A stretch of 53,734 nt of DNA from a virus (taxonomy: Duplodnaviria; Caudoviricetes): IMG/VR virus record IMGVR_UViG_3300003691_000007, positions 1 through 53,734 of that record, one strand, 5' to 3'. The position numbers were made by a program, and so were the translations under genes. Positions within the stretch are counted from its first letter, which is position 1; each line of letters begins with the position of its first letter. Below the pieces are notes generated by a model. The model made no database searches. It was not told where the DNA came from and worked only from the letters and a program-made list of their open reading frames with translations. This document shows positions 30,343 to 49,802 of this stretch, in pieces.

Positions 30343-30648
30343 ATGAATATAACCGGATTGAATAATAGAACGCCTACAATCAAATGCCGAGACAAGGATA
30401 TCTTGTCGGTAATTAGAATAATAAACGGCTCTCCATTAAGAGCCGAAAGTGAAAAAATTGGTATAAAGTACGGACAAATGACGCGGCTATACCAGCGGGT
30501 ATTAAATGAAGTGTGCCGATATAATATCGACAGGATGGAAGTTAAGGACCCAATTCTCTTTACCCGGTCAATGCCAGAGGCAAGAAAAAACAAAGAGGAA
30601 TGGTTGGGTTATATCAGAAACTTCATGGATAGCAGGGGGATGGAATGA
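30343..30648 (+). CDS. Hypothetical protein, possible HTH
   Basis: 101 aa; RD..IL...INGSPL...SEKIGIK..Q weakly resembles a sigma region-4-type HTH. Confidence 0.55.
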   Translation: MNITGLNNRTPTIKCRDKDILSVIRIINGSPLRAESEKIGIKYGQMTRLYQRVLNEVCRYNIDRMEVKDPILFTRSMPEARKNKEEWLGYIRNFMDSRGME

Positions 30649-30893
30649 GCATCTATGACGTAACTTTTATTACAATATTTATGCTTGTTCTTTGCTACAT
30701 CGCTTACACTGGGGCATGTTTCGCGGCAATTCTTGATGAATTAAAGGATAATGAAATTAAGATCACGTTCGCAAAGTTTATCGCGGCAATGCTTGTTGCC
30801 ATAGTAATGATAGCGACAGCGCCACAAGTTAAGGAAATTATAAAGCGTAGCTTAGTTATAAATATCGAGGTAAGTACAAATGAGCAACTTTGA
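30645..30893 (+). CDS. Small 2-TM membrane protein
   Basis: 82 aa; two hydrophobic helices. Confidence 0.65.
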   Translation: MSIYDVTFITIFMLVLCYIAYTGACFAAILDELKDNEIKITFAKFIAAMLVAIVMIATAPQVKEIIKRSLVINIEVSTNEQL

Positions 30894-31221
30894 GATAATA
30901 GCGTGGGGAATTGTCGTAAGTATTTTTCTTTACAATAATTTCTTCAAAATAATCCCTGACAAACTCCAGGAACAAAGAATTCACGACCTGAATGAAGATA
31001 TAGAAAAACTAAAAGGTATGGCTAAATCAGCAGCTATTAACTTTGAAGCACTTGAAGAACACATCAATGAAAAAGATATAATAATCAAAGACTTGAAGCG
31101 CGATAACCACATGCTTGTTGATGAAGTTGGAATATTAACAAAGGCCATAATCAAACAAGATCAAATGGTTAAAGACGTAAAGTTGAAATACGGGCCTCAA
31201 GTACCACTTGAAAGCAATTAG
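30880..31221 (+). CDS. Single-TM coiled-coil protein
   Basis: 113 aa; GAGGT SD. Confidence 0.65.
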   Translation: MSNFEIIAWGIVVSIFLYNNFFKIIPDKLQEQRIHDLNEDIEKLKGMAKSAAINFEALEEHINEKDIIIKDLKRDNHMLVDEVGILTKAIIKQDQMVKDVKLKYGPQVPLESN

Positions 31222-31327: not shown

Positions 31328-34300
31328 TTATTTCTTTTTCTTCTTCTTCATTTTTTGCGCTCTTTCGAGAACGTCCATCATCTTGCTTTCAAGCCTCTTT
31401 TGCTCTTCCATCAGTTCTTCCTTGCTTATATCCTTTCTGTTATAGGCTCTCTCAGCTTTCCTTAACGCAGCTTTTATGGCTCGTTCGTTCTTTGATATAC
31501 CGTAAGCCCTAAACTCTCTCTGAAGCTCAATATTAAACCCAGCAGCTTTAATACCAAGTACACTTAGGACCGCGAGAGGTACGCTGTAAGTTCTACCAAG
31601 CATATCCTCCTTGCCCTTAGCCGCATTGATAAGTTTCTCCTGGGAATAAGAGTAAGGTATCCACGGAGCATTTGGAGACATAGATTTATAAAGGAATTTC
31701 ATTGATGATGATACTTTCTCTGCCACAGAGTCCATATCAGGGTCGTAGATATCCTTCCCGGTAAATACTTGTCTGTTTGCATACAGTTCAGCGCCAATTG
31801 CCAGCAACCCGCCTGGTATCATTGGTCCAGGTATGTAGCCTGAATCATGCTGATTCGTATCAAAGATATCACCAACAGGTATCCAGCGCCTAATATCAAG
31901 GTAAACAGGATCGCCATTGTTATCATCGAAAGGTGTTCTTATCATGCGCGGTACACCAATCCAGGTGTATCCACTCTGATGTTCTGGCATTACAGAGCGC
32001 TCTTCTTCTTCATCGCCAGGGTTAAGTAAGTAACCGGCCATACTTGCAACATACGCTAATGCAAAATACTTAGGTAACTTCCACGGTCTTTCAGCAAGAG
32101 CCTTTGCAACAACTGGAGCTGCACGATAAGAGTAAGCAATAAACGGCAAGAATGATCTTCGTGCCGCATTTACCCACGGTGCGCGAATGTCATAGTTAAG
32201 AAACTGTCTTCTAGCCATCGCAGCCGCTTCAACAGAAGAGTCTCCAAGTTCCTTACGCCTAATGTATGTAGCAAGCCTGAATATTTCATCCTCAAGCTGA
32301 TACATGTTTAGCATCTTATCGTCTGCTTTAGCTATCGCGCTAATAGCTACCTTAGCTGATCCTTTAGCCACGTTAGCGAGTTCACCCTTCAGTAATCCTT
32401 TTCGCAAGGTATTTAGTGCGCCTAATAAGCCTCCTTTACTCATAATATCATCAGAGTTTTGGCTGGTTATCTCTCTTAATATAGGATCAAGTATTTCCTT
32501 CTTAATTTCAGAGTTTACAAAACTTGAGCCAAAAGCATTATCATCTACCGCTTGTTGGTAGATATCAGATTTTTTCAGGTATGACTTTATTGCGTTCCTT
32601 AAATCACGCGCACGAATGTCGGCCATATCCATGAATATCAGGTTTGACATTACATTGTTTACATGGACCACTGGGTTCCTGGCAGTCTTATTTAGTTTCC
32701 ACTGAGTAAGTAGCCATTGCCATGATCCGTGTTGATTTACCTTATCAAGCTGGTTTAAGTCGCGCCAAACTTCTCCCTTTACATACATGCCGGCAAGTGA
32801 TCCCCACTTCTTAACGCCACCTGTTCCACTTATACTTGTGTTTGGTACTTTCACCCAATCTACACCGGCATAAGTTCCGGCCTTTGAGTTTCTTTTGTTG
32901 TCAGGGTCTACAGCATTACCGGGGTCTTGATGTGTGGCCCACTCTTTGTTTTCCGCAATTGTCTTAAAGAACCTACCATTTGCTATCTGTTCTGACATAA
33001 GCATGAAAGTCTTTGCAACGGTATATCTGGCATCTAGTATTTGCCCCATATCCTTTCGTTCAGCCTTTGTGTAGTCGCGCCACAAAGTTATCTTGTTACC
33101 CTTGGTCCAACGAGCCTCCCATTCTCCACGGCTTTCCCATGCGTCATACTTGGCTGGTATTTCCTGGTCTGCTGGGAGGTATACGCGCTCAAGCACTCTT
33201 CTTTTTTCAGGCCCACCTTCCTCAACACCTTCTATTGTTTCAGTTCCTTCGCCTACAGATTTCAACCGATCAAAGATTAAGAATTTTCTCCCGATGAAAG
33301 TTTCGTCAACCTTCCCTTTGCTTAACTTCTGCTCAAACCATCCTGGTACATTTTTAGCAAGCGTACCCATCTTAACCGAAAGCGTAAGCCCTCTTCCCTT
33401 TAGCATCCCATCAGACTTGCTTAGTCTTCTTTTTTCCATTCTCTTCAATATGAAGCTGGACACAGTTCCCGCGTTTTCTTCATGAGACTTATATACGCGG
33501 TGCATATACTGGCCTCTATTGCGCTCGTAGCTTTCCTCAGATATAAGTCCAAGATCAACCATTTCTCTGCCGTAGTTATCAATAGCAGCTATTATTGGAG
33601 TAGAAAAACCCTTTAGTCGTTCGCTTGTAAATGCGTTATCCGGGTCTTCTATCAAGTCATGCAGTAGTTTCGCCTCGTCAGAGCTTACTCCACGATCAAT
33701 CATATCTCTTACTACCTTCTCTCCTTCAAGTGCTATTCTACGTTGTTCAGCTCCCCTTTCCGCGTCCGCTGATACATACTCGTCAGACAATCCATGACGG
33801 TCAATAAGTCCAGCCCGGAAAACACCAAGTATATTATCCACAGTGGCATTTCCGGTCTTCTTGTTTTCAACTAGGTCTTCAGTCCACCCGTATGCTTTCA
33901 CTCCATGTTTAAATCTACCGTGGCTATCGAGCGTCTTTACTACACTAAAAGGATACCTAAACGCTTTATCCAAGTACTGGCCTTCATCCTTTTTGATTTT
34001 TTCAGTCTTATTTTCCTCGCTATCCTGCTTTCTTGAAAATGTCGGCTTATCAGATTGCGCGTTAGGTGCTTTTGGATTCTTACCGCCAGATACAACATGA
34101 CGTGAAGACTTAGCGATAATAGACTGCAATGAAGCCTCGTCCATCGATCCTATCCCATGTTTCGCAAGCCATAACCTTACTTTAGCAATAGCGCTTTTGA
34201 TAATTGGGTGCTTATGGTCACGCTCTGCCAGGTGAGCAAAAATTTCTCTCGCCTCTTGAGACTCTTCTAAATTGTACTCGCCAGTTTCATCATTAAGGTA

Positions 34301-37300
34301 GTTTTTCTTTATCCTCTCGATAACTGCCATTATCCGCTTGTTCTTAACCTTCTTTAGCGCCCTTATTTTTTTAAGAGAGTCCTCCAGGTTGCGCCCAAGT
34401 ACAGCCTCAATACCAGCATGACCAACAAGCTCATGAGCAAGTGTAGTTTTTAATTCTTCAGAAGTGTTTTGATCTGCAATTATATAAACATCACCTTTGA
34501 ATGAAGCGCCTTTGATATCACTAGGCGCGTCAAAAGGTAATTCAGACACAGATTGAAGCGCGTGTATTCTTATTCCTTCCGGGGCCTTATATTTGGCCTT
34601 AGCAATGTATTTCTCAACCTCCGCTTTAGTTACACCAGATACCTTTTCTCCGTCTTTCTTGAACAAAGCGCCAGTATCTCCACTGATTCCTTTAGGATCA
34701 TTATTTTCTGATTCTAATGAATCGAATGATTCAATAGCTTCATCCATTGGCTTACCACCAGCGTCTTCAAACTTACCTCTGTGGGTTCCTCTTAATCCCA
34801 TAGTCACAATTTCAGTTAGCCTTTTAATAGCCGCCTTAATTTTTCTAGGCTTAACAATTGCTGTCATTTGAGCGCCATTGCCGTAAAAATCGCCAACTAT
34901 ATCTCTTAATTCTGAGTCAAACTTTACAGCCCTTGCGTGTTTGTACTTTTGCGCCTTTGATACAGTAATAACAAAATCATCACCACTGTAACCCATTATC
35001 ACTTCCTTTGATTCGTGATAAGAAAGATCATAACGGCCACGGTTATCTTTGTGGTACTTGAGCAGCACATCAATGTCACGAACAATTATATGGTCCGTAG
35101 TAGTACTTGTATCGCCATCTTCATTAAAAGATGATGGAGTAAGTATTCCCTGGTGAGTTTTTCCTTTGTCATCGGTGAAGTTTACGATCCTTCCAGGTAG
35201 CTTTGCCAGGCCATTTATAATATTTCCAGTGGCAATGTACCTTGTTTCCCTTTTAATAGTTGCCTCTTCGGAGAATATTCCATCAACCCTTTGATCTAAT
35301 GTTTCATTAGGGTTTTTATATATCCCTGCATTAGTTGATACGGTAGAGTTAAATCCCAGTTTTGTAAGCGGTAAAGTTACACTGTAAACACCACTATTAA
35401 CCATGAAGCGCACAGATACCTTTGAGCGCGAATAAGGATTGCCTTTTCCGTTCTCATGCTTATCATTGACTGATACAACAATGCCTTTTGTTTGAGTTCC
35501 TTCTTCAAGCGTAAGATTAAATACTTCTCCAACACTGTACCTTTGTATCAATAACTTAGTTTCTTCGATCTCCTCTTTTGTCTCGCGCTCTCTTATCTCG
35601 GCTTTTTCTAGTGCGTCAGCGTGTGAGGAAAGCATCTTGTCGTAATTTTCTGATCCTTTCTTTGTGTTTTTGAATTTCTCATGGGTGTCACTTAACCTCG
35701 CGCTGGTTTCCTCCAGGTATGAAAGATATGATGTGTCGGTATCTTTCGTTGCAATAATTTGATCTGAAGTAAGAACCGATTTTTTGTTAAGCTCCTTCTT
35801 TACCTGGCTGGCTCTTGGTGGCTTGCCCTGATACTTTGAGTTTACTTTGTGTAAAGTAGTGTTCCCGCCAAAAATAGATGATGGGTCCTTACCTTGATAA
35901 ACCACCTTGCTTTCGATTATTCTCGCATCAAGGTCTAAGGTTTGAGCGATAAGATCATTTTGTCCTGTCTTGTTAAGATACTCTATAAGTTCGTTGTATT
36001 CTTTTTCAACGTCCTTATAGAATCTCTCCTGCTGCCTCCACGGTAGAACAGCAAGCCGGCCTGTAGCTTTTAGGGCAAAACCTGGCATCTCTGCCGCCTC
36101 TGCTGAAGAATTGCCTCTCATGTCAAGTTTTTCTGCTAATGCCTTATCTTCTGCAAGGTAACTACTCACCACGATATCACCATACTTATTCATGATATCT
36201 GCGGCTTCAATGCTTGTGTCTGATTCATCGTTCGCACTTGTATTAGCGTTCAATGAAGACAATTTTTTAGCGGTAACCGACATAGGTCTTTTTTCTGCCG
36301 GTAAATCAGTAGACATAAGAGTGTAGTTAGGTACAACCACTTGGCCAGTACGATTAACGCGGCCTAGCATTTGCACTAACGTATTAATATCCTGCATCGG
36401 CTGGATAACAACCATGTGTCTTTTGTTTTGATCTTTGAAGTTCTCACTCGCATGAGCGCTTAGTCCTGTAGCGCCAGCCGAGTTAAGCACAAGAGCATCA
36501 AGATTGCCATTGTTAAACTTATCAACGGTTCCTCTCTTGTTCTTACGTTCAACTGTGTTGCGTCTTGATACGACCGGAACATCGCCCGAGTAATCTATTG
36601 AGTAATCACGTCCGGTAATCTCACCAACATTGATACCCTCTTCGCTCAACTTGTATTTTATGTAGTCAATTGGGGAAATTGGTAGGTTGTCAGGTATTTT
36701 GGCTTTTAATATCTTAACCTTCGCTTCATCGTAATATTCCCTGGTGGTATCGTCCAGAGAATCAAGAGGAATAATAACCTTCTTTTTCTTGCCTCTCACG
36801 TCTACGTGAGTCATTACACGGGAACCATCCAGAGCTTTAAGAAGAATATCCTTATATGACGCTCTTATTTCATCACCAACAACCAGGTCATTGTCCTTTA
36901 TATAGTCGGCAAGGAACGATCCCATAGTGTTTTCGAGTGCTAATACTGGCTTTTCACCCTTTTTATATGATGCAATTGCCTTTTCAATAGCCTGGTCAAC
37001 TTTGATAGTTAGTAAAAATTGTCGTATATAGTTATGGATTATCGAGTTAAATCCAGCATGGTTTACTGTTGAAGATGATTTGTTTCCAGCACTGTACGCA
37101 CCACCACCTTCATCCTTTGCATTTTCGATATATATCTTAGCAAAGCCACTATGAAACATTCTATCGGCCTCCATGATGGCCTCTAGCCCTGAATTTACAT
37201 GGTCAGAAGTTTCTCTGTGATAGTCTCCATTCTCTACGTCAACAACCGTAGGTATTGATATTCCTTTAAGTGATCTCTCTCTCCGGAATAACTGACCGCT

Positions 37301-40300
37301 TTCAGTAAGCATGTTTGCTATTACTTGCTGAAGTGGTAGTCCTCCGCGCTGTATCGAATCAATTAAATCATCCGAATCATCTACAGAATCCATTATATCG
37401 GTCCTGTAGTATATCGGCATATTCTCAGCTCTCTTTGCGTAAGTAGCTGATAAGTACAACACCGGGGCATCCCTGATAACATCGTACATAAACCCTGCAC
37501 CATGTATCCGCTTGACACCCTTTACTATCGATTCTCTTTGACCGGATATGTTATGGGATTCGTCAAGAACAAAGAAAGCGTTATGCTTTAGGGCATTTAT
37601 TAGCTTTCTCTGCTTGTTATCTGTGGTTATCTGGCTGTAGGTCATGAAAAGCATGTCGTTTTCAGGCTCTAGGTATCCTGTCTCGATCATGCTATTTATC
37701 TTTTCTGTTCTCTTTTTGGTCTTAGGAACATTGCCATTTTTCTCACTTGCAATAACACTATTGTTATTCAGTAAGAATGGGGATATGTCACTTTCACCGA
37801 TATCATGTAAATCGTCATACATGTCGGTAAATAGATTTTCTTTTTCCGTGATGAATATTGGAGTTTTTCCAATTGCTTTAGCGTATCGGATAATACCAGC
37901 AGCCTGTCGGCCCTTACCAACACCTGTAGAGTCGGCAATGATTATTGCCTTGTTTTTCTCTTCGTTGTTATAGATTGAGGCAGCAATGGTATCTACCTGT
38001 AAGCCCATGAAAGCATTGAATAATTCCTCCTTACTATCATAACCTAGCTTACTCATAACATAATCATCCACTGACATTCCTATGTCTTTCTCCATCCTAT
38101 CAAGAGCAATTTCTATGGATTCAGCCATGTTTTTAGGTATTAAAACGTCTTCATTTTTACCTTTACTCTTTGATGGGTATGCAACCTGAAAGTCTGACGC
38201 ATTTACATCAGGCTCCTTTCCAGGCTTGCTATCAGGTTTTCCAGTGTTTGACTTTCTGCCAGAGTCTTTGTTGGGGCTACTGACGTTACTTCCTTTAGTC
38301 GAACCCGATCTATCAGGTCTGATAGTGGTCCCTCCGTCACCATTGCCCTTGCCATCGCTCCCGGCTTGTCCTGCGTCCCTATTGCCGCTGACATTCCCGG
38401 AACCCCCGCCAACATTGCTGCCGGATTTTCCACTTTTTCCATCATTTCCATTAGCTTGTCTACCATCATTTCCTTTAGTATCCAATCCTCTTCCGGGTCC
38501 GATTCCAGAATCAGTACCTCCGATTCGTCCTTCGTTAAGTCCTCGCTTTCTGGCATCCAATACTGCGTTGACGTGTTCATATATACTACTCCACTCAGTT
38601 AGTCTCTTAATTGTTCCGGCTTTCGGACCTATGCTTTCGGTCTTATTTCTACCTTCAATGGTAATAACTCTGATAGGCCATGCCGCGCCCTGTCTTGTGT
38701 ACAGCTTGCCATCAACTTCAAAGTGATCTGCCACATTGTAATTAGAGTATAGCCAGTTAAAAAATGTTCTATCGCCATTACTTTGAGCACCAGCAACTTT
38801 GTGTGCACCAATGATTAATGTAGCTTTACCATCATCCTTCATTGCCTCAAGAGACTTAATGACAATGGCATGATCTATCGATTCAATTTTATAGCCGTCT
38901 TCATCTATTGATTCGTTTCTGCCTTCACTGTTCTTTAGTTTTCCGAAAGGTGGATTCTGTATTACCGCATCAACCATGCCTTTTGGCTTGTACTTTGTCG
39001 CATCATTTTTCGTAACAGTGAAGCCCATATCTTCAAGGTTACTTGCCCTATCATCGTTCAACTCATTAACAATGCTGTTTTGGTCCGAACCGATTAACAA
39101 CATTCCATTACCTGCTGTTGGTTCGTAGACTTTAGTGCCTTTTTTGATTCCCGATAACTTGGAGGCGAGGTAGGCAATTGGCGCTGGTGTGCTATATGCC
39201 TGGTTCTCAATACTTGTCGAGGACCGCATGTTTAAAAGCGGTTGAGACTTGTATTGCTCCAATAGTGTTGAAAATGTACTTTCCAGTGTGCTTTCACCAC
39301 TAACGGTATTTCTGGCCTGTAAAACAAGAGCAACTTCAAATTGTTCCTGCGCGTCTTTTACCTGTTCAGCCGTTACTTCCTTAACATCAATGCCTTTATG
39401 TTCGGCATATTTCTTCTTCAGAGAATTGTTATCCTTTATTTCCTTTATGTTTTCGTAAAGGAAATCAGATAGCTTTATCCCTTTTTCTTCAGCCGATCCG
39501 TTGCTGGATTCGTTATCTTTATGCTCGTTAGCTTTTTCTTTCCGCTGTCCGTAACTCGGTCTAACCAACCCTCTAGGCTTTCCTTCCCGCGATCCGCGTA
39601 AGCCTGCTTTTTCGCGTCTTTCCTTTTCTGCTGCGAGTCCGCTGTCTGCCTGTTCATAAGTTTCTCCTGTCGCGTAAGTGAAGTCTGCACCTACCTTGTA
39701 AATTATCTCTCCCTCAAGGTTCGCTTCAATGACTGCCTCTTCAAGCAACTTCCTAGCTTTCTTGAGTGTTTCGTGTACGTCTTTTTCTGTGTCACCTTGT
39801 AGTATAAACTCGTCACCTGACTTGTGGTATACCCACTCAGACACATTGACAAGGGCATCAGCAACAACAATAAGAAGAGCATCGCCAGCTTCATGGCCCC
39901 CCATGTGATCGTTTACAGCTTTTAGGCCATCAACGTCTATGCTTACCTGGACCTTCTTCGGGTTCTCTTCGATATCCTTCTTGTACTGCAAGTAGTTTTT
40001 CAGGCCTGTTAGCGGGTGAGTGAAAGCAAGTTTGCGTAATGTCGCAATTTCTGCATCCTTTTCGTCTTCATCAAGACTGTCTACTTCTTCACGTTTCTTT
40101 TCATCTACTCGCTTATCGGCTGAATCAAGACTGTCTAGCGCATCCATTCCTGAATTATCAAACTCAGGATGAAAGTAAACCATTGAATAAAGAGACTTCA
40201 AGTAAGGCTCTATCACATCGCCCAGGTCGCTAATCATTGCTTTACTGAACGCAGTAAACTTTCTTGCTCCTGATTCAATGTGTCCACCGGCAACCACCGA

Positions 40301-43300
40301 GGCAAGTTGCATTGTCTCAAAATCAAGCCCGGCATTTAGATTTGCCAGCTTTTTAATGAGTTCTGCCCGGGCAGCGGCCACCTTATCTTCGGTGAATAGC
40401 TTATTTCCGGCCATTTTCCCTGGCTTTTCTGGGCTATCCGCTTTAGTTTCTTCCGGCTTTTGTTCTTTCGGTGCTATGAGCACACTTTTTTCATCGGTCT
40501 TATCTGTCTGTTCTGCCGGACTTTCATTTTGTTGCTGTTCGTTACGGTGAATCCTGTCTGCATTAGTGATCCATACCTTAAATTCATCCTCCTGGAACGT
40601 CTGAATACCTCTTGCGTTACTCTTTCCCGCCTCAAAACTTCCTTCATACGCGGCAATTGCTTCAGAGCGAGAGTAGTAATTCATCATTACCTTATGTTCA
40701 TCAAATTCATCATTGCTATCATGCTGAGATATTACATAGATTTCTTTTGAATCAGGGTAATCACCAACAAACACGTCCATATCATCGCCATCAGCACCGC
40801 GATATCCTTTAAGGTCCCCGTAATGCGCGTCCGATGGCATAGTGATTGACCACTTTTTACCGCTTTCATCGGTTCCTGATCTTGTTGCACCGGCTGGAGT
40901 TTCAATTGCAATGTTAAAACCGTGGATCGCTATCCGGCCCTTCTTGTAGTTATCTGCCTGTATTTGGCTCTCAGTAGGGCTTACATTGGTTTCGTTCGCA
41001 GCTTTATTAATAGCCTTGTTTTCTTTCTTACGGCTTACATCGGCTGCTTTCTTATCCTTTTTCTTACCTTCAAGATGCTTTCTAACCTCACCAATGAAGT
41101 TAGATATTGATTTTGAAGTTGCTTTTCCTGCCTTGATATCTCTTGCCGCAGCACTCAGCGCATCGGAAACTTCGCCTTTTGAGTTAGCCAGCTTTGAAAC
41201 TATGGATATTATTTCATCATCCTTAGTCATTTGTGTTTTGTTGGCATCGGTATCTAGTTGGTTTCCACCGATGTTTGATATATCGCTGTCATTATCAACA
41301 AGCATTGTTACTATTCGCTTGTTTCCTTTGATCTTTTTGAGTGCACCATCAAGAACAACGGCTCTTTCTTTAAATAGGCTCTCTGTTATCTCAACGTCAC
41401 CAAACAAACCACCCTGCTCAGTCCTGGTATCAAAACCCGCAGCGTTAGCCTGGTCGATAATCATTTCAGCTTGGCGCTTGTTGGCCGGCTTAGTCTTTGC
41501 AAGCAAGTCAATTATGCTTGATTGTTCCGCATCACCCTCGACCTTATCACCAACCAAAGATGCAAAACCTTCAGGGATTATTTTATTAACCGCCATTTGG
41601 AAAGCATTGTCACCAAGTTTAGTAAGCCCCCTCGCATCTTTTATCAATTGGCCGCTTTTTGGTAGAGCCTCGACCATATCACCCATTGTTTCATCGTTCG
41701 GATCAACATCACGTAGAACCTTAGCTCCATCAAGTGCTGTTCCTGATCCTTCGGCAATATTCTTGAACGCTGCTAGGCCACGAGCCTGAACATCGCTAAT
41801 ACCATCGCTTTCCTTCCATACAAGTGAAGGTATCTTTATTCCGTCTTGGGTTCCTTCGTCCATAAGCCTGTTAGCAAGACCGAATCTCTGATGGCCATCG
41901 GCCACAAAGTCCTGACCGCTTTCGTCCTGCCAAACTGCCGAAACACCAGCAAGATTATCATCCCACTTTTCAACACCTTTAAGCCTATCGGTCACGCCTT
42001 GAGAATCGCCACCTTCTTTAAACTGGAATCTTTCAGCATCAACCTGGGTTTCTCTTGGGTCAACATCAACATGCCGGCTTTCACCAGGACCGGAGATAGG
42101 TTGATCCTCAGATACATCAATAGAGCCTTCTTGCGTATAATCAACTGGCGCTTCAACGTCAGGCGCAACAGCATCAGGCGCTTGCATTTGCTCGTCTGTT
42201 AAAGGAATCATACTTCCCGCAGCAAACAAGTCTATGGCTCCAAGGCTGTCTTGGTTATATATAACTCGTGTTGGCATAGTTTGGCCATCAGGAGTGTTTG
42301 TACCTAAGTTTATAGGTGGAGGCGCACCGCCAGGGTTATCACCTGGTTCATCTTCTGGAGGCAATCCAAGTAAAACACCGGCATCATCACCAGGCCCGTT
42401 AGGTCCAGGCGGGTTATTTGGATCATCGGGATCATTTGGTCCATTAGGACCTGATGGATCGTTAGGATCGTATGGTTTTTTACTTGCTCTTGAACTAGCA
42501 ATAGCACCGGCAACGTCAGCGGGCATTGTTATTAACTCAAGCAGTCCCTCAGCAACAAGCTCTTCAAATTTTATTTCCTCGCCCATTGTGTATGCAGCAA
42601 GAGCTTCACCACCCATCCCTCCCATCACCTGGAAAGCGGATTGAACAGATACATTTACAACTTGGTTTCCAATTTTTAGAGGCACGAACCCTGCCGTCAG
42701 TCCATCAACACTTGCCTGGGCCAATGATCTTGTGAACGCTCTGAATGACGCTTCATCTATTCCGTAACCTTCCTCAAGTTGAGCTATGGTGTTACTACCC
42801 AATGTTTGAGCCATGCTTGAAACAGCACCACCCGCAGCACTACCCAGCACCTTACCACCAACTCCTGTTACTACTTTACCTACCGCTCCACCAGTTAATG
42901 GAGTTAAAGCCATTGGTATTGCTTGTTCTGCCGCTACCTCAGTTAAGAATCCTGTGGTGTCTGGAGAATCCCAAGCCTCCTTTATGAAAGCCCCCATAGC
43001 TTTAGGGGCAGCCGTCCACCCTTCGGTTTCATCGTAGGTTTTCTTTGTTCTTTCGAGCGCTCTTGCCATTGTAGGGTGATTCGGTATATCTCCTTTTTTA
43101 TCTTTCACCCAGTTAAGAGCTTTCAGCCTAAGATCGTCTTTCCACCCTTCAATATCATACCCTAGCGCCTCGCCCGCAGCGTTGATTGCTCTTGGTAATG
43201 GCATTATAGAGTCAGCAATTTTATCCATTGTTACCGCTGTTGACATGGCAGTAAGCCCGCCTTTTTTTGTTGCGCCCACACCACCGCCACCAGCGGCCTC

Positions 43301-43495
43301 ATGGTCAACTATCTCCCTTTCTTTATCTACATCAGTTGACCTAGTTTTAAACTGATCCCAAGCATAATCAAACTGATCTTCAGTTACTTTTGGCGCTATA
43401 TTGGTATTAAAATAATGCTCTCTTACCTTTTCTTGATCTCCTAAATCTAGTGATTTGTATCTTTCAGAGTCAGAGACTTCATTCCACTTTATCAT
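31328..43495 (-). CDS. Giant polyvalent (DarB-like) virion/ejection protein: ParB-like, PPase-like, GGDEF, N6-MTase, Strawberry-notch helicase, zincin
   Basis: 4055 aa; VADGHQR (41885-41905); GADGDDMDVFVG and FDEHK (40691-40798); DVDGLKAVND (39908-39937) and SGDEF (39806-39820); EPTAGNG (39104-39124) and NPPF (38945-38956); DSTGVGKG (37910-37933), DESH (37553-37564), QMLGRVNRTGQ; HELVGH (34418-34435). Confidence 0.9.
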   Translation of the reverse strand: MIKWNEVSDSERYKSLDLGDQEKVREHYFNTNIAPKVTEDQFDYAWDQFKTRSTDVDKEREIVDHEAAGGGGVGATKKGGLTAMSTAVTMDKIADSIMPLPRAINAAGEALGYDIEGWKDDLRLKALNWVKDKKGDIPNHPTMARALERTKKTYDETEGWTAAPKAMGAFIKEAWDSPDTTGFLTEVAAEQAIPMALTPLTGGAVGKVVTGVGGKVLGSAAGGAVSSMAQTLGSNTIAQLEEGYGIDEASFRAFTRSLAQASVDGLTAGFVPLKIGNQVVNVSVQSAFQVMGGMGGEALAAYTMGEEIKFEELVAEGLLELITMPADVAGAIASSRASKKPYDPNDPSGPNGPNDPDDPNNPPGPNGPGDDAGVLLGLPPEDEPGDNPGGAPPPINLGTNTPDGQTMPTRVIYNQDSLGAIDLFAAGSMIPLTDEQMQAPDAVAPDVEAPVDYTQEGSIDVSEDQPISGPGESRHVDVDPRETQVDAERFQFKEGGDSQGVTDRLKGVEKWDDNLAGVSAVWQDESGQDFVADGHQRFGLANRLMDEGTQDGIKIPSLVWKESDGISDVQARGLAAFKNIAEGSGTALDGAKVLRDVDPNDETMGDMVEALPKSGQLIKDARGLTKLGDNAFQMAVNKIIPEGFASLVGDKVEGDAEQSSIIDLLAKTKPANKRQAEMIIDQANAAGFDTRTEQGGLFGDVEITESLFKERAVVLDGALKKIKGNKRIVTMLVDNDSDISNIGGNQLDTDANKTQMTKDDEIISIVSKLANSKGEVSDALSAAARDIKAGKATSKSISNFIGEVRKHLEGKKKDKKAADVSRKKENKAINKAANETNVSPTESQIQADNYKKGRIAIHGFNIAIETPAGATRSGTDESGKKWSITMPSDAHYGDLKGYRGADGDDMDVFVGDYPDSKEIYVISQHDSNDEFDEHKVMMNYYSRSEAIAAYEGSFEAGKSNARGIQTFQEDEFKVWITNADRIHRNEQQQNESPAEQTDKTDEKSVLIAPKEQKPEETKADSPEKPGKMAGNKLFTEDKVAAARAELIKKLANLNAGLDFETMQLASVVAGGHIESGARKFTAFSKAMISDLGDVIEPYLKSLYSMVYFHPEFDNSGMDALDSLDSADKRVDEKKREEVDSLDEDEKDAEIATLRKLAFTHPLTGLKNYLQYKKDIEENPKKVQVSIDVDGLKAVNDHMGGHEAGDALLIVVADALVNVSEWVYHKSGDEFILQGDTEKDVHETLKKARKLLEEAVIEANLEGEIIYKVGADFTYATGETYEQADSGLAAEKERREKAGLRGSREGKPRGLVRPSYGQRKEKANEHKDNESSNGSAEEKGIKLSDFLYENIKEIKDNNSLKKKYAEHKGIDVKEVTAEQVKDAQEQFEVALVLQARNTVSGESTLESTFSTLLEQYKSQPLLNMRSSTSIENQAYSTPAPIAYLASKLSGIKKGTKVYEPTAGNGMLLIGSDQNSIVNELNDDRASNLEDMGFTVTKNDATKYKPKGMVDAVIQNPPFGKLKNSEGRNESIDEDGYKIESIDHAIVIKSLEAMKDDGKATLIIGAHKVAGAQSNGDRTFFNWLYSNYNVADHFEVDGKLYTRQGAAWPIRVITIEGRNKTESIGPKAGTIKRLTEWSSIYEHVNAVLDARKRGLNEGRIGGTDSGIGPGRGLDTKGNDGRQANGNDGKSGKSGSNVGGGSGNVSGNRDAGQAGSDGKGNGDGGTTIRPDRSGSTKGSNVSSPNKDSGRKSNTGKPDSKPGKEPDVNASDFQVAYPSKSKGKNEDVLIPKNMAESIEIALDRMEKDIGMSVDDYVMSKLGYDSKEELFNAFMGLQVDTIAASIYNNEEKNKAIIIADSTGVGKGRQAAGIIRYAKAIGKTPIFITEKENLFTDMYDDLHDIGESDISPFLLNNNSVIASEKNGNVPKTKKRTEKINSMIETGYLEPENDMLFMTYSQITTDNKQRKLINALKHNAFFVLDESHNISGQRESIVKGVKRIHGAGFMYDVIRDAPVLYLSATYAKRAENMPIYYRTDIMDSVDDSDDLIDSIQRGGLPLQQVIANMLTESGQLFRRERSLKGISIPTVVDVENGDYHRETSDHVNSGLEAIMEADRMFHSGFAKIYIENAKDEGGGAYSAGNKSSSTVNHAGFNSIIHNYIRQFLLTIKVDQAIEKAIASYKKGEKPVLALENTMGSFLADYIKDNDLVVGDEIRASYKDILLKALDGSRVMTHVDVRGKKKKVIIPLDSLDDTTREYYDEAKVKILKAKIPDNLPISPIDYIKYKLSEEGINVGEITGRDYSIDYSGDVPVVSRRNTVERKNKRGTVDKFNNGNLDALVLNSAGATGLSAHASENFKDQNKRHMVVIQPMQDINTLVQMLGRVNRTGQVVVPNYTLMSTDLPAEKRPMSVTAKKLSSLNANTSANDESDTSIEAADIMNKYGDIVVSSYLAEDKALAEKLDMRGNSSAEAAEMPGFALKATGRLAVLPWRQQERFYKDVEKEYNELIEYLNKTGQNDLIAQTLDLDARIIESKVVYQGKDPSSIFGGNTTLHKVNSKYQGKPPRASQVKKELNKKSVLTSDQIIATKDTDTSYLSYLEETSARLSDTHEKFKNTKKGSENYDKMLSSHADALEKAEIRERETKEEIEETKLLIQRYSVGEVFNLTLEEGTQTKGIVVSVNDKHENGKGNPYSRSKVSVRFMVNSGVYSVTLPLTKLGFNSTVSTNAGIYKNPNETLDQRVDGIFSEEATIKRETRYIATGNIINGLAKLPGRIVNFTDDKGKTHQGILTPSSFNEDGDTSTTTDHIIVRDIDVLLKYHKDNRGRYDLSYHESKEVIMGYSGDDFVITVSKAQKYKHARAVKFDSELRDIVGDFYGNGAQMTAIVKPRKIKAAIKRLTEIVTMGLRGTHRGKFEDAGGKPMDEAIESFDSLESENNDPKGISGDTGALFKKDGEKVSGVTKAEVEKYIAKAKYKAPEGIRIHALQSVSELPFDAPSDIKGASFKGDVYIIADQNTSEELKTTLAHELVGHAGIEAVLGRNLEDSLKKIRALKKVKNKRIMAVIERIKKNYLNDETGEYNLEESQEAREIFAHLAERDHKHPIIKSAIAKVRLWLAKHGIGSMDEASLQSIIAKSSRHVVSGGKNPKAPNAQSDKPTFSRKQDSEENKTEKIKKDEGQYLDKAFRYPFSVVKTLDSHGRFKHGVKAYGWTEDLVENKKTGNATVDNILGVFRAGLIDRHGLSDEYVSADAERGAEQRRIALEGEKVVRDMIDRGVSSDEAKLLHDLIEDPDNAFTSERLKGFSTPIIAAIDNYGREMVDLGLISEESYERNRGQYMHRVYKSHEENAGTVSSFILKRMEKRRLSKSDGMLKGRGLTLSVKMGTLAKNVPGWFEQKLSKGKVDETFIGRKFLIFDRLKSVGEGTETIEGVEEGGPEKRRVLERVYLPADQEIPAKYDAWESRGEWEARWTKGNKITLWRDYTKAERKDMGQILDARYTVAKTFMLMSEQIANGRFFKTIAENKEWATHQDPGNAVDPDNKRNSKAGTYAGVDWVKVPNTSISGTGGVKKWGSLAGMYVKGEVWRDLNQLDKVNQHGSWQWLLTQWKLNKTARNPVVHVNNVMSNLIFMDMADIRARDLRNAIKSYLKKSDIYQQAVDDNAFGSSFVNSEIKKEILDPILREITSQNSDDIMSKGGLLGALNTLRKGLLKGELANVAKGSAKVAISAIAKADDKMLNMYQLEDEIFRLATYIRRKELGDSSVEAAAMARRQFLNYDIRAPWVNAARRSFLPFIAYSYRAAPVVAKALAERPWKLPKYFALAYVASMAGYLLNPGDEEEERSVMPEHQSGYTWIGVPRMIRTPFDDNNGDPVYLDIRRWIPVGDIFDTNQHDSGYIPGPMIPGGLLAIGAELYANRQVFTGKDIYDPDMDSVAEKVSSSMKFLYKSMSPNAPWIPYSYSQEKLINAAKGKEDMLGRTYSVPLAVLSVLGIKAAGFNIELQREFRAYGISKNERAIKAALRKAERAYNRKDISKEELMEEQKRLESKMMDVLERAQKMKKKKKK

Positions 43496-45717: not shown

Positions 45718-47622
45718 CTATGCTCCTAATGGAACAGTTGTTTGCATCATAAAAAAAGTTTGTTTAGCTATCGACCAATTAAGAACACTTGGCGAACCAT
45801 CAAGATTAAGAGGTCTAACAAGTCGTGCTGTAGCCCTTATTGTTCCGCTCCCCGCTGAAACCATTATAACCGGAGTTGCTGTAGCTCTGTTTAATGATGG
45901 TCTTATCTGCTCAACCCACACAACTGAGTTATCAACAAGAATTTCCAATCTATATGCGCTGAGTTGGTTGTCGTTCTTGCTTACAACTACGCAGCACACA
46001 ATAGCTACTTGAGTAGTTGTTATTCCTGGGGGTAATTTTACATCAAAAGAGCCAGTACCAGAAGGAACCGTAAGTTGGCCAGAAGGTAGGCTCAAAGTAC
46101 CGCCAAAAAATGCGTGTCCATTGTTATCCACGTAGAATGTGGAGTTTGACTTGCTTGGTGATTCAGTCGATGGGCCACACCATAAGCCGAAACCACCGCC
46201 ACCAATTTGCACTGTTTTTTCATCGGTCCTGAATCGTCCTGCTCCAGTAACAAACAAGTTACCAGCAAGTCTTAATGTTCCGTTCTGCTCAAAATAGAAT
46301 ACGCTATCACTTCCACCTATTGAGTTTTTACCGAACCATATAGGGTATTGGCCGCTATTTGAGTTAATGCCTGATATCACTACCCTGTATTGGCCGGCAG
46401 CATCGCTTGTAGCAATGGTATTTCCTATAACTCTGTTTGCCTCAAGAAGTCCGGTCCATACTGAATTTGCGTTAATCTGGTCTGCACCAATAGTCTGAGC
46501 CTGGATTGAATTAGCCGTAATTGTTCCATCGACAACTAACGCACCATTAATGCCAACAGTTGAAACACCTCCAACGGTTGAAACAATGAAAGGGATGATC
46601 GATGAACCATCTTCATCAACAATAGGCGATGCAACGGCAAAATTTTCTGCTCGGACCACAAAGGAAGATGATGTGGAAATGTTTTGCCCTGTATATGGGT
46701 TTAACGTCACCAAGGAGGATATGCCAAAACCTACAACGTATCCATTTGTATCAAGCCTTACCGAATATTCACTACCAAACTCTGTACCCGGTCGATTCAC
46801 ACCAATACTTGCATTTTGGCTTATAGCGGCATAAATATCTGTAGCCGTCTTCACTTGAGCCAGGTTAATCCTGCTTTGAACGCATGTAGAGTAAATTATG
46901 TTAGGATTATCAGGATCGCAATCAACCAGGTCTATCCGGTCGTTAAGCGACTTAAATATCTGACTTTCTGTTATTTGGCCCTCTAAAACATCAAGAACAT
47001 ACTCAGGATCATTTGCGGTTGTACCGTGTATTCCTATTGATCCCTCGTTAGGCGTAAACAATCCTATTTCTGTTTCATCGTCTATCGTAAAGCCTACCCA
47101 TCTTATCCAATACCACCTTTCACCCTGACCTTGCTCATGATCGTCACCAGGCCGATAAAGCCCAACACCAGTATGAGTAAAAAAGCTACCAGGTGAGGTT
47201 CCTATCGATACTGCATCTACAAAATTTGGCGTGGTTGATGCGTATACCTCAGTGTATGCAAACTGTCCTGTCTGCGGCCAATCCCACAATATGCGGATAC
47301 CATCCCATAAGGATAAGGTTCTTACGTTCTGATGTGAATCTGGTATCTCTGTGTCAGAAAAATCCGGTGGAGTTAAAAAGCCACCACCAGGATCACCGCC
47401 AACTTCAGGAGGAAGGATAACACCGGAACCACCGGACGGATCATAAGTAGCTAATCCACCATCTTTCAGATCACGAAAAGACACAAAGCTATCTAAATGC
47501 TCACCAGTTATACCGAAAGCCTGGTCCAATCTTTCCTTTGTTGCGTTAAACACCCGACCAACGACACCGGACTCATTAACTTTAGGAATAGATTGTATCT
47601 GCTGCTTTCTCACCTTAGACAT
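45718..47622 (-). CDS. Tail tip/fibre protein with FN3-like and DUF1983 (lambda J-like) regions
   Basis: I.W...YTEVYAS, RWYWIRWV; YSVRLDTNGYVVGFG...FVVRAENFAV...PFIV...DGTIT. Confidence 0.75.
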   Translation of the reverse strand: MSKVRKQQIQSIPKVNESGVVGRVFNATKERLDQAFGITGEHLDSFVSFRDLKDGGLATYDPSGGSGVILPPEVGGDPGGGFLTPPDFSDTEIPDSHQNVRTLSLWDGIRILWDWPQTGQFAYTEVYASTTPNFVDAVSIGTSPGSFFTHTGVGLYRPGDDHEQGQGERWYWIRWVGFTIDDETEIGLFTPNEGSIGIHGTTANDPEYVLDVLEGQITESQIFKSLNDRIDLVDCDPDNPNIIYSTCVQSRINLAQVKTATDIYAAISQNASIGVNRPGTEFGSEYSVRLDTNGYVVGFGISSLVTLNPYTGQNISTSSSFVVRAENFAVASPIVDEDGSSIIPFIVSTVGGVSTVGINGALVVDGTITANSIQAQTIGADQINANSVWTGLLEANRVIGNTIATSDAAGQYRVVISGINSNSGQYPIWFGKNSIGGSDSVFYFEQNGTLRLAGNLFVTGAGRFRTDEKTVQIGGGGFGLWCGPSTESPSKSNSTFYVDNNGHAFFGGTLSLPSGQLTVPSGTGSFDVKLPPGITTTQVAIVCCVVVSKNDNQLSAYRLEILVDNSVVWVEQIRPSLNRATATPVIMVSAGSGTIRATARLVRPLNLDGSPSVLNWSIAKQTFFMMQTTVPLGA

Positions 47623-49651: not shown

Positions 49652-49802
49652 CCTGTTCACCTTCTTTTATAAGGTTGTTATTTATAATCTTTATCGCTTC
49701 ATTAATCGCACCAATCATCGGCTCTTTTGCCGACTGCGGCAATGTTTGAACAAAATCTTGTGATACGTTGGCGATTAACTGTATTGCTTCATCTAAATTC
49801 AT
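49632..49802 (-). CDS. Small helical protein (56 aa, not in ORF track)
   Basis: ATGA overlap with the upstream stop, AAGGA SD; MNLDEAIQLIANVSQDFVQ...; fills the gap. Confidence 0.7.
   Translation of the reverse strand: MNLDEAIQLIANVSQDFVQTLPQSAKEPMIGAINEAIKIINNNLIKEGEQDAHKDR

What the first reader, a model, noticed from the sequence alone, without database searches (positions are those of the whole stretch)
39620..40040. Phage-encoded GGDEF (diguanylate-cyclase-like) domain inside a virion protein
Seen: coiled-coil lead-in, then AFTHPLTGLKN, SIDVDGLKAVND, GHEAGDALL, YHKSGDEF and a terminal AD..L...K, the full GGDEF motif series in compact form. Metal-binding Asp residues and the guanine-specifying N and D are retained. 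SGDEF is a known active variant and the RxxD inhibitory site is absent, but the usual Arg before the motif is His. Established: GGDEF dimers make c-di-GMP, which controls motility, pili, exopolysaccharide and some phage receptors and defence sensors. Inference: an unregulated c-di-nucleotide pulse at infection that could alter receptors, motility or immune signalling. I cannot verify how often this has been reported in phages.
Basis: partly seen in the sequence, partly recalled or inferred. Interest (0 to 1): 0.85.

Follow-up and report, generated by a model that had tools for sequence, protein, structure and literature searches.

The report
Compact GGDEF cyclase in giant phage protein
A giant multi-enzyme protein of an uncultured phage carries a real, stripped-down GGDEF domain that probably makes the bacterial messenger c-di-GMP, a kind of phage domain already described by computation but never tested at the bench.

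Summary
All quoted motifs lie at aa 1157-1291 of a 4055-aa ORF on the minus strand (31328-43495). Pfam GGDEF passes its cut-off (31.8 vs 23.8 bits). The AlphaFold model (pLDDT 95.9) matches solved diguanylate cyclases. The "coiled-coil lead-in" is only a ~16-residue helix after a low-confidence linker.

The host protein is a DarB-like "polyvalent" protein (InPase, GGDEF, N6-methylase, Sno-type helicase). Its gene ends the virion gene block of a Bcep22/933W-like podophage.

The domain belongs to a distinct clade found almost only in viral sequences:
- HxSGDEF replaces RxGGDEF.
- An Arg-rich C-terminal tail is conserved.
- Three deletions remove the RxxD feedback site.
- No sensor domain is attached.
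- Catalytic and guanine-binding residues are invariant or nearly so in 155 relatives.
- 8 of 155 relatives carry tandem copies.

Yuavirus and Vojvodinavirus phages carry standalone ~156-aa versions of the same clade.

Most likely this is an unregulated diguanylate cyclase delivered with, or made by, the phage. Activity, product and injection are all inferred.

Iyer et al. 2017 already reported GGDEF domains in polyvalent phage proteins, so this is a new member of a known kind. I found no enzymatic test in print. Interest is moderate.

The parts
31328..43495 (-). 4055-aa ORF (P0001): DarB-like polyvalent protein that holds the finding
   Evidence: Single open frame. Pfam: InPase, GGDEF, ResIII/DEAD, AAA_34 and Helicase_C_4. 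Best PHROG is phrog_10089 'DarB-like antirestriction', 2.1e-54.
39614..40015 (-). GGDEF domain as matched by Pfam, aa 1161-1294
   Evidence: PF00990, 31.8 bits against cut-off 23.8. 36.9 bits at these coordinates.
39560..40093 (-). Full clade-level domain, aa 1135-1312: short lead helices, palm core and Arg-rich tail
   Evidence: phmmer matches of relatives span query residues 1-177. AF2 model pLDDT 95.9. In the 977-aa model, pLDDT is 84-98 from about aa 1135 to 1315.
40022..40069 (-). Lead-in helix, aa 1143-1158. It has a 7-residue insertion (aa 1146-1152) that 120-124 of 155 relatives lack
   Evidence: DSSP helix 8-22 of model 1 and 408-423 of model 2. Gap counts.
39806..39829 (-). Active-site hairpin YHKSGDEF, aa 1223-1230
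   Evidence: HxSGDEF occurs in 102 of 155 relatives. G1227 and E1229 are invariant, and D1228 is in 154 of 155.
39908..39943 (-). SIDVDGLKAVND, aa 1185-1196: metal-binding Asp residues (D1187, D1189), K1192 and the base-reading N1195
   Evidence: Aligned to idvdkfkeind of DosC 4zve. D1187 and N1195 are in 155 of 155, D1189 in 154 of 155.
39569..39625 (-). C-terminal clade motif K..RE..G.R..R....P.G, aa 1291-1309
   Evidence: Counts of 155: K1291 155, R1294 150, G1298 152, R1300 151, R1303 141. Also present in the standalone Yuavirus and Bordetella-phage proteins.
40568..40969 (-). InPase (type I inorganic pyrophosphatase-like) domain, aa 843-976, about 185 aa upstream of the GGDEF domain
   Evidence: PF18823, 1.4e-41. 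pLDDT 82-96 in the 977-aa model.
40112..40522 (-). Low-confidence linker and weak helices between InPase and GGDEF, aa 992-1128
   Evidence: pLDDT below 50 at model residues 257-300 and 355-393. No Pfam family.
38696..39208 (-). N6-adenine methyltransferase-like region, aa ~1430-1600, with NPPF at aa 1514
   Evidence: N6_Mtase at 1.3e-5 and 25.2 bits (cut-off 20.4); Eco57I weaker. NPPF located.
35969..37996 (-). Strawberry-notch-type helicase, aa 1834-2509
   Evidence: AAA_34 3.6e-20, Helicase_C_4 3.8e-23, ResIII 6.7e-10.
47615..49660 (-). Upstream gene for an internal virion protein
   Evidence: phrog_511 'internal virion protein', 1.2e-101. tblastn matches virion proteins of Burkholderia BcepMigl/DC1, Ralstonia and Vibrio phages.
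45718..47622 (-). Upstream tail fibre gene
   Evidence: phrog_19394 and phrog_37064, tail fibre.

Best explanation
Residues ~1135-1312 form a catalytically competent GGDEF nucleotide cyclase with no sensor domain and no feedback site. It belongs to a clade found almost only in viral sequences.

Proposed mechanism:
1. Two copies pair up.
2. Each binds GTP-Mg through D1187/D1189, D1228/E1229, N1195/D1205 and K1291/R1294.
3. The pair condenses two GTP into c-di-GMP.

The domain is one module of a giant DarB-like polyvalent protein encoded at the end of the virion gene block. That protein is probably packaged and delivered with the DNA. The infected cell would then get an unregulated rise in c-di-GMP that reprogrammes motility, pili, exopolysaccharide or nucleotide-based defence to the phage's benefit. 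The InPase domain 185 aa upstream may remove the pyrophosphate by-product.

Shown: domain identity, fold, residue conservation, clade structure and gene context.

Inferred: activity, GTP as substrate, c-di-GMP as product, dimerisation, packaging and injection, the physiological effect, and the InPase coupling.
For: Domain identity:
- Pfam is above its cut-off.
- The family profile matches 52 PDB GGDEF sequences.
- The AF2 model (pLDDT 95.9) gives 83 PDB matches at E<=0.001.

Selection on the active site, in 155 aligned relatives:
- D1187, N1195, G1227, E1229 and K1291: 155 of 155.
- D1189 and D1228: 154. D1196 and G1204: 152. R1294: 150.
- The base-reading pair N1195/D1205 reads 'ND' in 139 of 155. 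As I recall it, this is the guanine-specific state.

Need for a pair of active domains:
- 8 of 155 relatives carry two full clade domains in tandem.
- In at least 5 of the 8, both copies keep the DxD..ND, SGDEF and K..R motifs.

No regulation:
- RxxD occurs near the motif in only 5 of 155.
- No sensor domain lies within 400 aa in the 51 viral proteins scanned.
- Linkers on both sides have pLDDT below 50.

Precedent for the motif: SGDEF is active in ECA3270 (PMC3974145 passages).

Viral lineage:
- The clade HMM scores 80 viral loci at 127 bits or more. The 80 best loci from one genome per species score at most 111.7.
- In a tree, 81 viral and 2 Yuavirus/Vojvodinavirus rows plus one MAG row sit on one side of a branch with SH-aLRT 99.

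Delivery:
- The gene follows the tail fibre and internal virion protein genes.
- The virion proteins resemble Bcep22-like phages.
- JC1 gp69, a 4515-aa DarB-like protein in the same genome position, was found in purified virions with 51 unique peptides (PMC9144972 passages).

InPase link:
- Present within 400 aa in 14 of 51 viral proteins.
- Present within 3 kb in 18 of 80 loci, in both orders. 13 of those 18 lie within 100 aa.

Other support:
- Phages are known to raise host c-di-GMP by another route, the YIP peptide (PMC8085984, abstract in the listing; PMC11461919 passages).
- Iyer et al. 2017 proposed the same kind of role.
Against: - No activity, product or oligomeric state has been measured for any member of this clade in the papers I could search.
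- His replaces the Arg that canonical cyclases have two residues before the motif (133 of 155). Ser replaces the first Gly (112 of 155). One paper found that serine at that position abolished activity in a different enzyme, VCA0965 (PMC3974145 passage).
- The conserved Arg follows K1291 at +3. As I recall, PleD has it at +4.
- The window's protein has one domain copy. Its lead helix is short, so nothing in the sequence explains how it would dimerise.
- No protease module for releasing the domain was found: no HExxH motif and no Pfam hit.
- The InPase link is one-sided. None of the 80 best InPase loci in IMG/VR holds the GGDEF domain within 3 kb. InPase is at least five times commoner there (519 relatives against 104). 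The adjacency counts are not phylogenetically independent.
- The host is unknown, so I cannot say that it uses c-di-GMP.
- The giant proteins of the cultured Bcep22-like phages gave no match to this domain (0 Burkholderia records among 53 matches). Packaging evidence therefore comes from homologues that lack the domain.
Confidence: 0.55

Rival explanations
1. The domain is an active cyclase or polymerase, but its product is not c-di-GMP. It could be another cyclic or linear di- or oligonucleotide. Such a product could jam or decoy host cyclic-nucleotide immunity, or signal to another phage module.
For: - The clade has its own active-site signature: HxSGDEF in 102 of 155 and HxKGDEF in 18 of 155.
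- It has an Arg-rich tail that the cellular sequences sampled lack: 0 of 80 genome loci against 46 of 80 viral loci.
- Within 400 aa, some relatives carry domains of nucleotide-signal warfare: 2H phosphoesterase in 2, Acb1 anti-CBASS in 1 and RelA/SpoT in 1 of 51.
- A related minimal palm enzyme, mCpol/OptS, makes 2',3'-c-di-AMP. Single Ser/Asn changes shift its base choice (PMC12657218 passages).
Against: - The guanine-reading Asn/Asp pair is kept in 139 of 155.
- All sequence and fold matches are to GGDEF diguanylate cyclases. No Cas10 or mCpol family appears at E<=0.1.
- The Asp that Hypr GGDEF enzymes replace (my recollection) is retained.
- The nucleotide-warfare neighbours are rare.
Confidence: 0.15
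2. The domain makes c-di-GMP but is not an injected effector. It would act when the gene is expressed late in infection or from a prophage, changing biofilm and motility of the lysogen or the dying cell (lysogenic conversion).
For: - The window has lambdoid-type recombination and replication genes: Erf, exonuclease and O/P-like. Its virion proteins resemble temperate Bcep22- and 933W-like phages.
- Lysogens of Bordetella phage LK3, which carries a standalone clade member, showed hyper-biofilm. The authors linked this to the GGDEF gene without testing it (PMC8471281 passages).
- The Yuavirus homologues are small non-structural genes beside an exonuclease and a KlcA antirestriction gene, not virion genes.
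Against: - In the viral contigs the domain is embedded in long open frames in 79 of 80 loci.
- In the window it sits in a DarB-like protein in the virion module. A homologue of that protein is packaged.
- No integrase or repressor was identified in the window by the scans I ran. The record is only ~78% complete.
Confidence: 0.2
3. The domain is catalytically dead or nearly so. It would serve as a GTP- or dinucleotide-binding or structural module of the giant protein.
For: - It departs from the canonical motif at two positions, His for Arg and Ser for Gly.
- Degenerate GGDEF domains with other roles are documented (PMC3974145 background passage).
- One cellular member on the clade's side of the tree, L164, is clearly degenerate (YHSESDEF).
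Against: - The full catalytic set is invariant or nearly so in 155 diverged sequences of about 35-48% identity. That is hard to explain without catalysis.
- Tandem duplications keep both active sites.
- SGDEF is active in ECA3270.
Confidence: 0.12

Closest known systems
GGDEF domains of phage/prophage polyvalent proteins (Iyer, Burroughs, Anand, de Souza, Aravind 2017, PMC5512222; example Acetonema longum WP_004096050.1)
   Same: A GGDEF domain sits in a giant multi-enzyme phage protein alongside a SWI2/SNF2-type ATPase and a DNA adenine methylase. It was predicted to be delivered at invasion and to interfere with nucleotide signalling (passages).
   Different: That paper calls these domains 'not very widespread'. 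In the passages I read it gives no clade signature, no link to InPase and no experiment. I could not see its supplementary alignments, so it may already define this clade. The window's protein shows no ART or zincin protease.
Standalone ~156-aa GGDEF proteins of Yuavirus (MP1412_43, YuA gp44) and Vojvodinavirus (Bordetella phages FP1, LK3, CN1)
   Same: Same clade. They score 139.8 and 135.4 bits on the clade HMM and share the tail motif K..RE..G.RAARG..P. They fall on the viral side of the tree.
   Different: They are standalone early-region genes next to an exonuclease and KlcA or SprT-like genes. They read RxSGDEF or RxAGDEF, not HxSGDEF. They lack about 26 residues of the clade model (positions 104-129).
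Canonical bacterial diguanylate cyclases (PleD 1w25/2v0n, WspR 3bre, SiaD 7e6g, DosC 4zve, DgcZ 3tvk)
   Same: Same fold and same catalytic and guanine-reading residues. Foldseek E is 1e-7 to 1e-9 with TM 0.55-0.66. Profile E values reach 2.6e-26.
   Different: It has no sensor or receiver domain and no RxxD feedback site. There are three deletions. His stands in for the Arg before the motif and Ser for the first Gly. An Arg-rich tail is added.
P1 DarB and the DarB-like giant virion proteins of Bcep22-like podophages (JC1 gp69, Bcep22 gp75)
   Same: Methylase plus helicase core. The giant gene closes the virion module and is followed by small genes on the other strand. Virion association of JC1 gp69 was shown by mass spectrometry (PMC9144972 passages).
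   Different: No Burkholderia phage record matched the GGDEF domain. The domain is therefore an addition to this scaffold in the window's lineage.
Phage YIP peptide acting on host YfiN (PMC8085984)
   Same: A phage product that raises host c-di-GMP (abstract in the listing; PMC11461919 passages).
   Different: YIP is a small peptide that acts through a host cyclase. It is not itself an enzyme.
mCpol / OptS of the Panoptes system and Cas10 palm domains
   Same: A minimal palm-domain nucleotide cyclase used in phage-host conflict (PMC12657218 passages).
   Different: OptS is host-encoded, has almost no GGDEF motif and uses ATP. The window's domain matches GGDEF and no mCpol or Cas10 family.

Membership tests
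GGDEF domain (Pfam PF00990) | Scores above the curated cut-off of the family model | tested here: met
   31.8 bits against 23.8. 36.9 bits in the six-frame search. The stricter TIGR00254 model is below its cut-off, 24.5 against 37.4.
GGDEF domain (Pfam PF00990) | Palm-like GGDEF fold | tested here: met
   AF2 pLDDT 95.9. 83 PDB matches at E<=0.001, and all listed are GGDEF structures.
Active diguanylate cyclase | GG[DE]EF hairpin with the two acidic residues | tested here: met
   The motif is SGDEF: D1228 and E1229 are present, and Ser replaces the first Gly. SGDEF is reported active in ECA3270 (PMC3974145 passages).
Active diguanylate cyclase | Metal-binding Asp in the first strand (DxD..K) | tested here: met
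   D1187, D1189 and K1192 align to idvdkfk of DosC. They occur in 155, 154 and 146 of 155 relatives.
Active diguanylate cyclase | Guanine-reading Asn and Asp (PleD N335/D344, numbering recalled) | tested here: met
   N1195 and D1205 are both present. The pair reads 'ND' in 139 of 155 relatives.
Active diguanylate cyclase | Arg two residues before the motif (RxGGDEF) | tested here: not met
   His1224. The position is His in 133 and Arg in 21 of 155 relatives.
Active diguanylate cyclase | Phosphate-binding Lys and Arg in the last helix (PleD K442/R446, recalled) | tested here: inconclusive
   K1291 is invariant. The conserved Arg (R1294, 150 of 155) lies at +3, not +4. I could not read model coordinates to check the geometry.
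Active diguanylate cyclase | Synthesis of c-di-GMP from GTP by a homodimer | not testable with these tools
   This needs an enzyme assay and a measurement of oligomeric state.
Feedback-regulated cyclases (I-site) | RxxD five residues upstream of the motif | tested here: not met
   The sequence there is NVSEWVYHK. RxxD occurs in the ten residues upstream in 5 of 155 relatives. The loop is shortened by a 3-residue deletion.
Hypr GGDEF (cGAMP-making) | Replacement of the guanine-reading Asp by Ser (recalled) | tested here: not met
   D1205 is retained. Across 155 relatives the position is D in 139, N in 14 and T in 2, with no Ser.
mCpol / Cas10 palm | Match to those family models or structures rather than to GGDEF | tested here: not met
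   No such Pfam family at E<=0.1. The top PDB matches are all GGDEF.
Polyvalent protein (Iyer et al. 2017) / DarB-like | Several unrelated enzymatic domains in one polypeptide of a phage | tested here: met
   InPase, GGDEF, N6-methylase and Sno-type helicase in 4055 aa. The record is an IMG/VR virus record. phrog_10089 scores 2.1e-54.
Polyvalent protein (Iyer et al. 2017) / DarB-like | Gene in the virion module; protein packaged | tested here: inconclusive
   Gene position is met. Packaging is known only for homologues such as JC1 gp69 (PMC9144972 passages).
Polyvalent protein (Iyer et al. 2017) / DarB-like | Zincin-like processing protease (frequent, not universal) | tested here: not met
   No HExxH anywhere in the protein. 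No Pfam hit in aa 2510-4055.

The most novel reading that the evidence does not exclude
The HxSGDEF clade is an old GGDEF lineage restricted almost entirely to viruses. It has lost every regulatory feature and gained an Arg-rich tail. It often travels with a pyrophosphatase as a two-enzyme cassette inside injected giant proteins.

In this reading its product is not ordinary c-di-GMP signalling. It would be a nucleotide made in a burst at the moment of DNA entry, either a non-canonical di- or oligonucleotide or c-di-GMP used as a weapon. That burst would blind or mis-trigger host cyclic-nucleotide defences, or shut receptors against competing phages.
Probability: 0.15. Interest if true: 0.8.

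Novelty: new member of a known kind. Interest (0 to 1): 0.45.

Why it matters
If active, this is a second-messenger synthase that a phage brings into the cell ready-made, with no brake. The phage would then write the host's c-di-GMP state directly instead of waiting for gene expression.

The clade is large:
- 643 cluster representatives at E<=1e-10.
- 104 relatives in IMG/VR from a single pattern scan.

It is sharply defined and untested. One enzyme assay on a 180-residue domain, or a knockout of the standalone gene in a cultured Yuavirus, would settle whether phages use c-di-GMP as an offensive tool.

The specific finding adds little beyond Iyer et al. 2017. Its value lies in the clade definition and the testable InPase pairing.

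Tried and rejected
- **Homodimer prediction.** Complex prediction with two copies of aa 1136-1312 plus 2 GTP and 2 Mg. Verdict 'no answer': score 0.42, with one control at 0.30. It counts neither for nor against dimerisation.
- **InPase-GGDEF coupling, reverse direction.** None of the 80 best InPase loci in IMG/VR has the GGDEF domain within 3 kb. The link holds only from the GGDEF side, so I keep it as a weak inference.
- **977-aa AlphaFold model (aa 736-1712).** pTM 0.40, with no confident packing between InPase and GGDEF. It was useful only for domain limits and linkers.
- **Zincin protease.** I first read HELVGH (about aa 3000) as HExxH. The regex shows no HExxH in the protein and Pfam finds nothing there. 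Claim dropped.
- **Coiled coil.** Not supported.
- **Near-identical DNA in GenBank phages.** None found.
- **Host assignment.** A single-protein scan of genome contigs found no relative. The alignment scan found only distant cellular GGDEFs. GC is about 42%. The host stays unknown.
- **mCpol/Cas10 and Hypr readings.** Rejected; see the membership tests.
- **Failed or corrected calls.** One search failed because alignment A1 was too diverse for genome contigs. One search used a wrong frame and I did not repeat it. One search had a badly formed search term, corrected.
- **Literature.** Searches found no paper with an enzymatic assay of a phage-encoded GGDEF protein. The library lacks most subscription journals, and supplements were closed.
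Full report
**What is there**

The finding lies inside one open reading frame on the minus strand, 31328..43495, encoding 4055 aa.

All quoted motifs are present, at aa 1157-1167, 1185-1196, 1200-1208 and 1223-1230, plus ADSGLAAEK ending at K1291.

Evidence that this is a GGDEF domain:
- Pfam GGDEF matches aa 1161-1294 over profile positions 5-158 of 161. The score is 31.8 bits against a cut-off of 23.8.
- A six-frame search of the record gives 36.9 bits at 39614-40015 on the minus strand.
- A profile of the domain and 29 short relatives matches 52 distinct PDB sequences at E<=1e-5. All are GGDEF proteins, and the best is SiaD 7e6g at 2.6e-26.
- An AlphaFold2 model of aa 1136-1312 has pLDDT 95.9 and pTM 0.89.
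- Foldseek returns 83 PDB matches at E<=0.001, and every listed one is a GGDEF structure.

The profile alignments show three deletions against solved cyclases. One shortens the loop that normally carries the RxxD feedback site. The 'coiled-coil lead-in' is a ~16-residue helix (aa 1143-1158) plus a short helix at 1132-1139, preceded by a segment with pLDDT below 50 at aa ~1090-1128.

**The protein and the phage**

The window is an IMG/VR virus record, linear and about 78% complete.

The 4055-aa protein carries these modules:

| Module | Residues |
|---|---|
| InPase pyrophosphatase | 843-976 |
| GGDEF | 1161-1294 |
| N6-adenine methylase-like region (NPPF at 1514) | ~1430-1600 |
| Strawberry-notch-type helicase | 1834-2509 |

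Its best PHROG is 'DarB-like antirestriction'.

The gene follows a tail fibre gene and an internal virion protein gene on the same strand. Two small ORFs on the other strand come after it. The internal virion protein resembles those of Burkholderia Bcep22-like, Ralstonia, Vibrio and Stx-converting phages.

In the Bcep22-like phage JC1, a 4515-aa DarB-like protein in the same position was detected in purified virions with 51 unique peptides (PMC9144972, passages).

This is the 'polyvalent protein' class of Iyer et al. 2017. Those authors already list GGDEF among its domains and suggest that it interferes with host nucleotide signalling (PMC5512222, passages).

I found no HExxH motif and no protease family in the protein. 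A 977-aa model places the GGDEF module between low-confidence linkers, with no confident contact to InPase (pTM 0.40).

**A clade found almost only in viral sequences**

An exhaustive phmmer search of 1.84 billion cluster representatives gave 4799 proteins at E<=1e-3 and 643 at E<=1e-10. I analysed 155 proteins: the window's own, 149 and 5. Of these, 118 are 1000 aa or longer and the median length is 1933 aa.

Conservation across the 155:

| Residue(s) | Present in (of 155) |
|---|---|
| D1187, N1195, G1227, E1229, K1291 | 155 |
| D1189, D1228 | 154 |
| D1196, G1204, G1298 | 152 |
| R1300 | 151 |
| R1294 | 150 |
| D1205 | 139 |

Other features of the clade:
- The motif reads HxSGDEF in 102, HxKGDEF in 18 and RxGGDEF in 9.
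- RxxD lies upstream in 5.
- The base-reading pair is 'ND' in 139.

A conserved tail, K..RE..G.RA.RGE.P.G, closes the domain. It is also found in the standalone 156-aa proteins of Pseudomonas phage MP1412 and Bordetella phage FP1. These score 139.8 and 135.4 bits on the clade HMM.

Scans of the sequence collections:
- **IMG/VR.** 104 of 140 pattern matches encode relatives. In 79 of the 80 kept loci the domain sits in a long open frame.
- **One genome per species.** None of the best 80 carries HxSGDEF or the tail, against 50 and 46 of the 80 viral loci.
- **Clade HMM scores.** These do not overlap: viral loci score 127.4 or more, genome loci 111.7 or less.

I built a quick maximum-likelihood tree of 125 rows. 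It held 81 viral rows, 2 Yuavirus/Vojvodinavirus rows, and the 42 genome rows that cover at least 120 model positions; 38 shorter genome rows were left out. All viral rows and one MAG row (L164) fall on one side of a branch with SH-aLRT 99.

In GenBank phages, 53 of 50,697 records match. Of these, 48 are Pseudomonas and Bordetella siphophages with the standalone form, and 5 are small faecal fragments. None has the giant form.

BFVD lists further annotated GGDEF proteins from viruses, for example Bacillus phages G and SP-15.

**How it probably works**

Strict conservation of the metal-binding, guanine-reading and phosphate-binding residues argues for catalysis on GTP.

Eight of 155 relatives carry two full clade domains in tandem. 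In at least five, both copies keep all motifs. This fits an enzyme that needs two active sites facing each other.

With no sensor domain, no feedback site and linkers on both sides, the enzyme would be constitutive.

InPase is the commonest neighbour:
- 14 of 51 viral proteins have it within 400 aa.
- 18 of 80 loci have it within 3 kb, 8 upstream and 10 downstream.
- 13 of those 18 lie within 100 aa. Uniform placement would give about 12%.

A pyrophosphatase next to an enzyme that releases two pyrophosphates per product is a sensible pair, but the link is one-sided. None of the 80 best InPase loci has the GGDEF domain, and the counts are not independent.

My best reading, at 0.55, is an unregulated diguanylate cyclase delivered in or made by the phage that raises c-di-GMP in the infected cell. 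Activity, product, dimerisation, packaging and effect are all inferred.

**Against this reading, and the rivals**

- His replaces the canonical Arg before the motif, and Ser replaces the first Gly. SGDEF is active in ECA3270, but a serine at that position killed VCA0965 (PMC3974145, passages).
- The window's protein has a single domain copy and no evident dimerisation element.
- The cultured phages with packaged DarB-like proteins lack this domain.
- The host is unknown.

Rivals:

| Rival | Confidence | Main support |
|---|---|---|
| A different nucleotide product | 0.15 | The clade-specific active site, and rare 2H, Acb1 and RelA/SpoT neighbours |
| Action from a prophage or late expression rather than injection | 0.20 | LK3 lysogens make more biofilm, an untested link (PMC8471281, passages) |
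| A non-catalytic module | 0.12 | Two departures from the canonical motif; contradicted by the conservation |

**Novelty**

The kind is known. Iyer et al. 2017 described it by computation, GenBank annotators label the Yuavirus and Vojvodinavirus genes as GGDEF cyclases, and UniProt holds several viral GGDEF entries.

I found no enzymatic test of any phage GGDEF protein in searches. The library is limited, supplements were closed, and the supplementary alignments of Iyer et al. may already define this clade.

- The clade signature.
- Its near-restriction to viral sequences.
- The tandem forms.
- The one-sided InPase adjacency.

Verdict: a real and well-preserved domain, and a new member of a known kind. 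Interest is moderate (0.45).

Noticed in passing
L164:2557-3492 (+), Acidobacteriaceae MAG contig: This is the only cellular sequence on the viral side of the tree. It is a 311-aa protein with an N-terminal HCxxGxxRS (dual-specificity-phosphatase-like) motif fused to a degenerate clade GGDEF domain reading YHSESDEF.
   Followed up: partly
P0007-P0009, P0011-P0013, P0016, P0019 (relatives): Eight of 155 relatives carry two full clade GGDEF domains in tandem. Three of them are short proteins of 478-544 aa that consist of little else.
   Followed up: partly
window 40043-40063 (-), aa 1146-1152: The window's lead-in helix has a 7-residue (one heptad) insertion, KDAEIAT. Between 120 and 124 of 155 relatives lack it. 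Most of them have M[ST]PEE just before this point.
   Followed up: no
IMG/VR loci L004-L054 (within 400 aa of the GGDEF domain): Besides InPase (14 of 51), the neighbours within 400 aa include ART-PolyVal (7), RadC (2), 2H phosphoesterase (2), Acb1 anti-CBASS (1) and RelA/SpoT (1).
   Followed up: no
window ~34040-34645 (-), aa ~2950-3150: A segment containing LAHELVGH (HExxxH, not HExxH) recurs in 17 other GGDEF-bearing giant proteins, always downstream of the GGDEF domain. It matches no Pfam family. Its function is unknown.
   Followed up: partly
window 41018-42049 (-), aa ~483-826: This region is shared with phrog_10691 and with the C-terminal part of a 'portal protein' PHROG (phrog_21). 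It holds a ParB-like DGHQR motif at aa 533. No Pfam family reaches threshold.
   Followed up: no
window 30343-31221 (+): Two small ORFs (101 and 113 aa) with no PHROG match lie on the opposite strand just after the giant gene. The JC1 paper describes the same arrangement for Bcep22-like phages.
   Followed up: no
L001:5938-6899 (Pseudomonas phage MP1412): The standalone GGDEF gene lies next to a KlcA antirestriction gene and downstream of an exonuclease gene. One record (phage BL8) labels the GGDEF gene itself 'anti-restriction protein'.
   Followed up: no
window 42300-42500 and 38150-38500 (-), approximate: The giant protein has two low-complexity stretches that look like inter-domain linkers. 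One is Pro/Asn/Gly/Asp-rich, near aa 335-400. The other is Gly/Ser/Asn-rich, near aa 1665-1780. Both were seen by eye in the translation.
   Followed up: no
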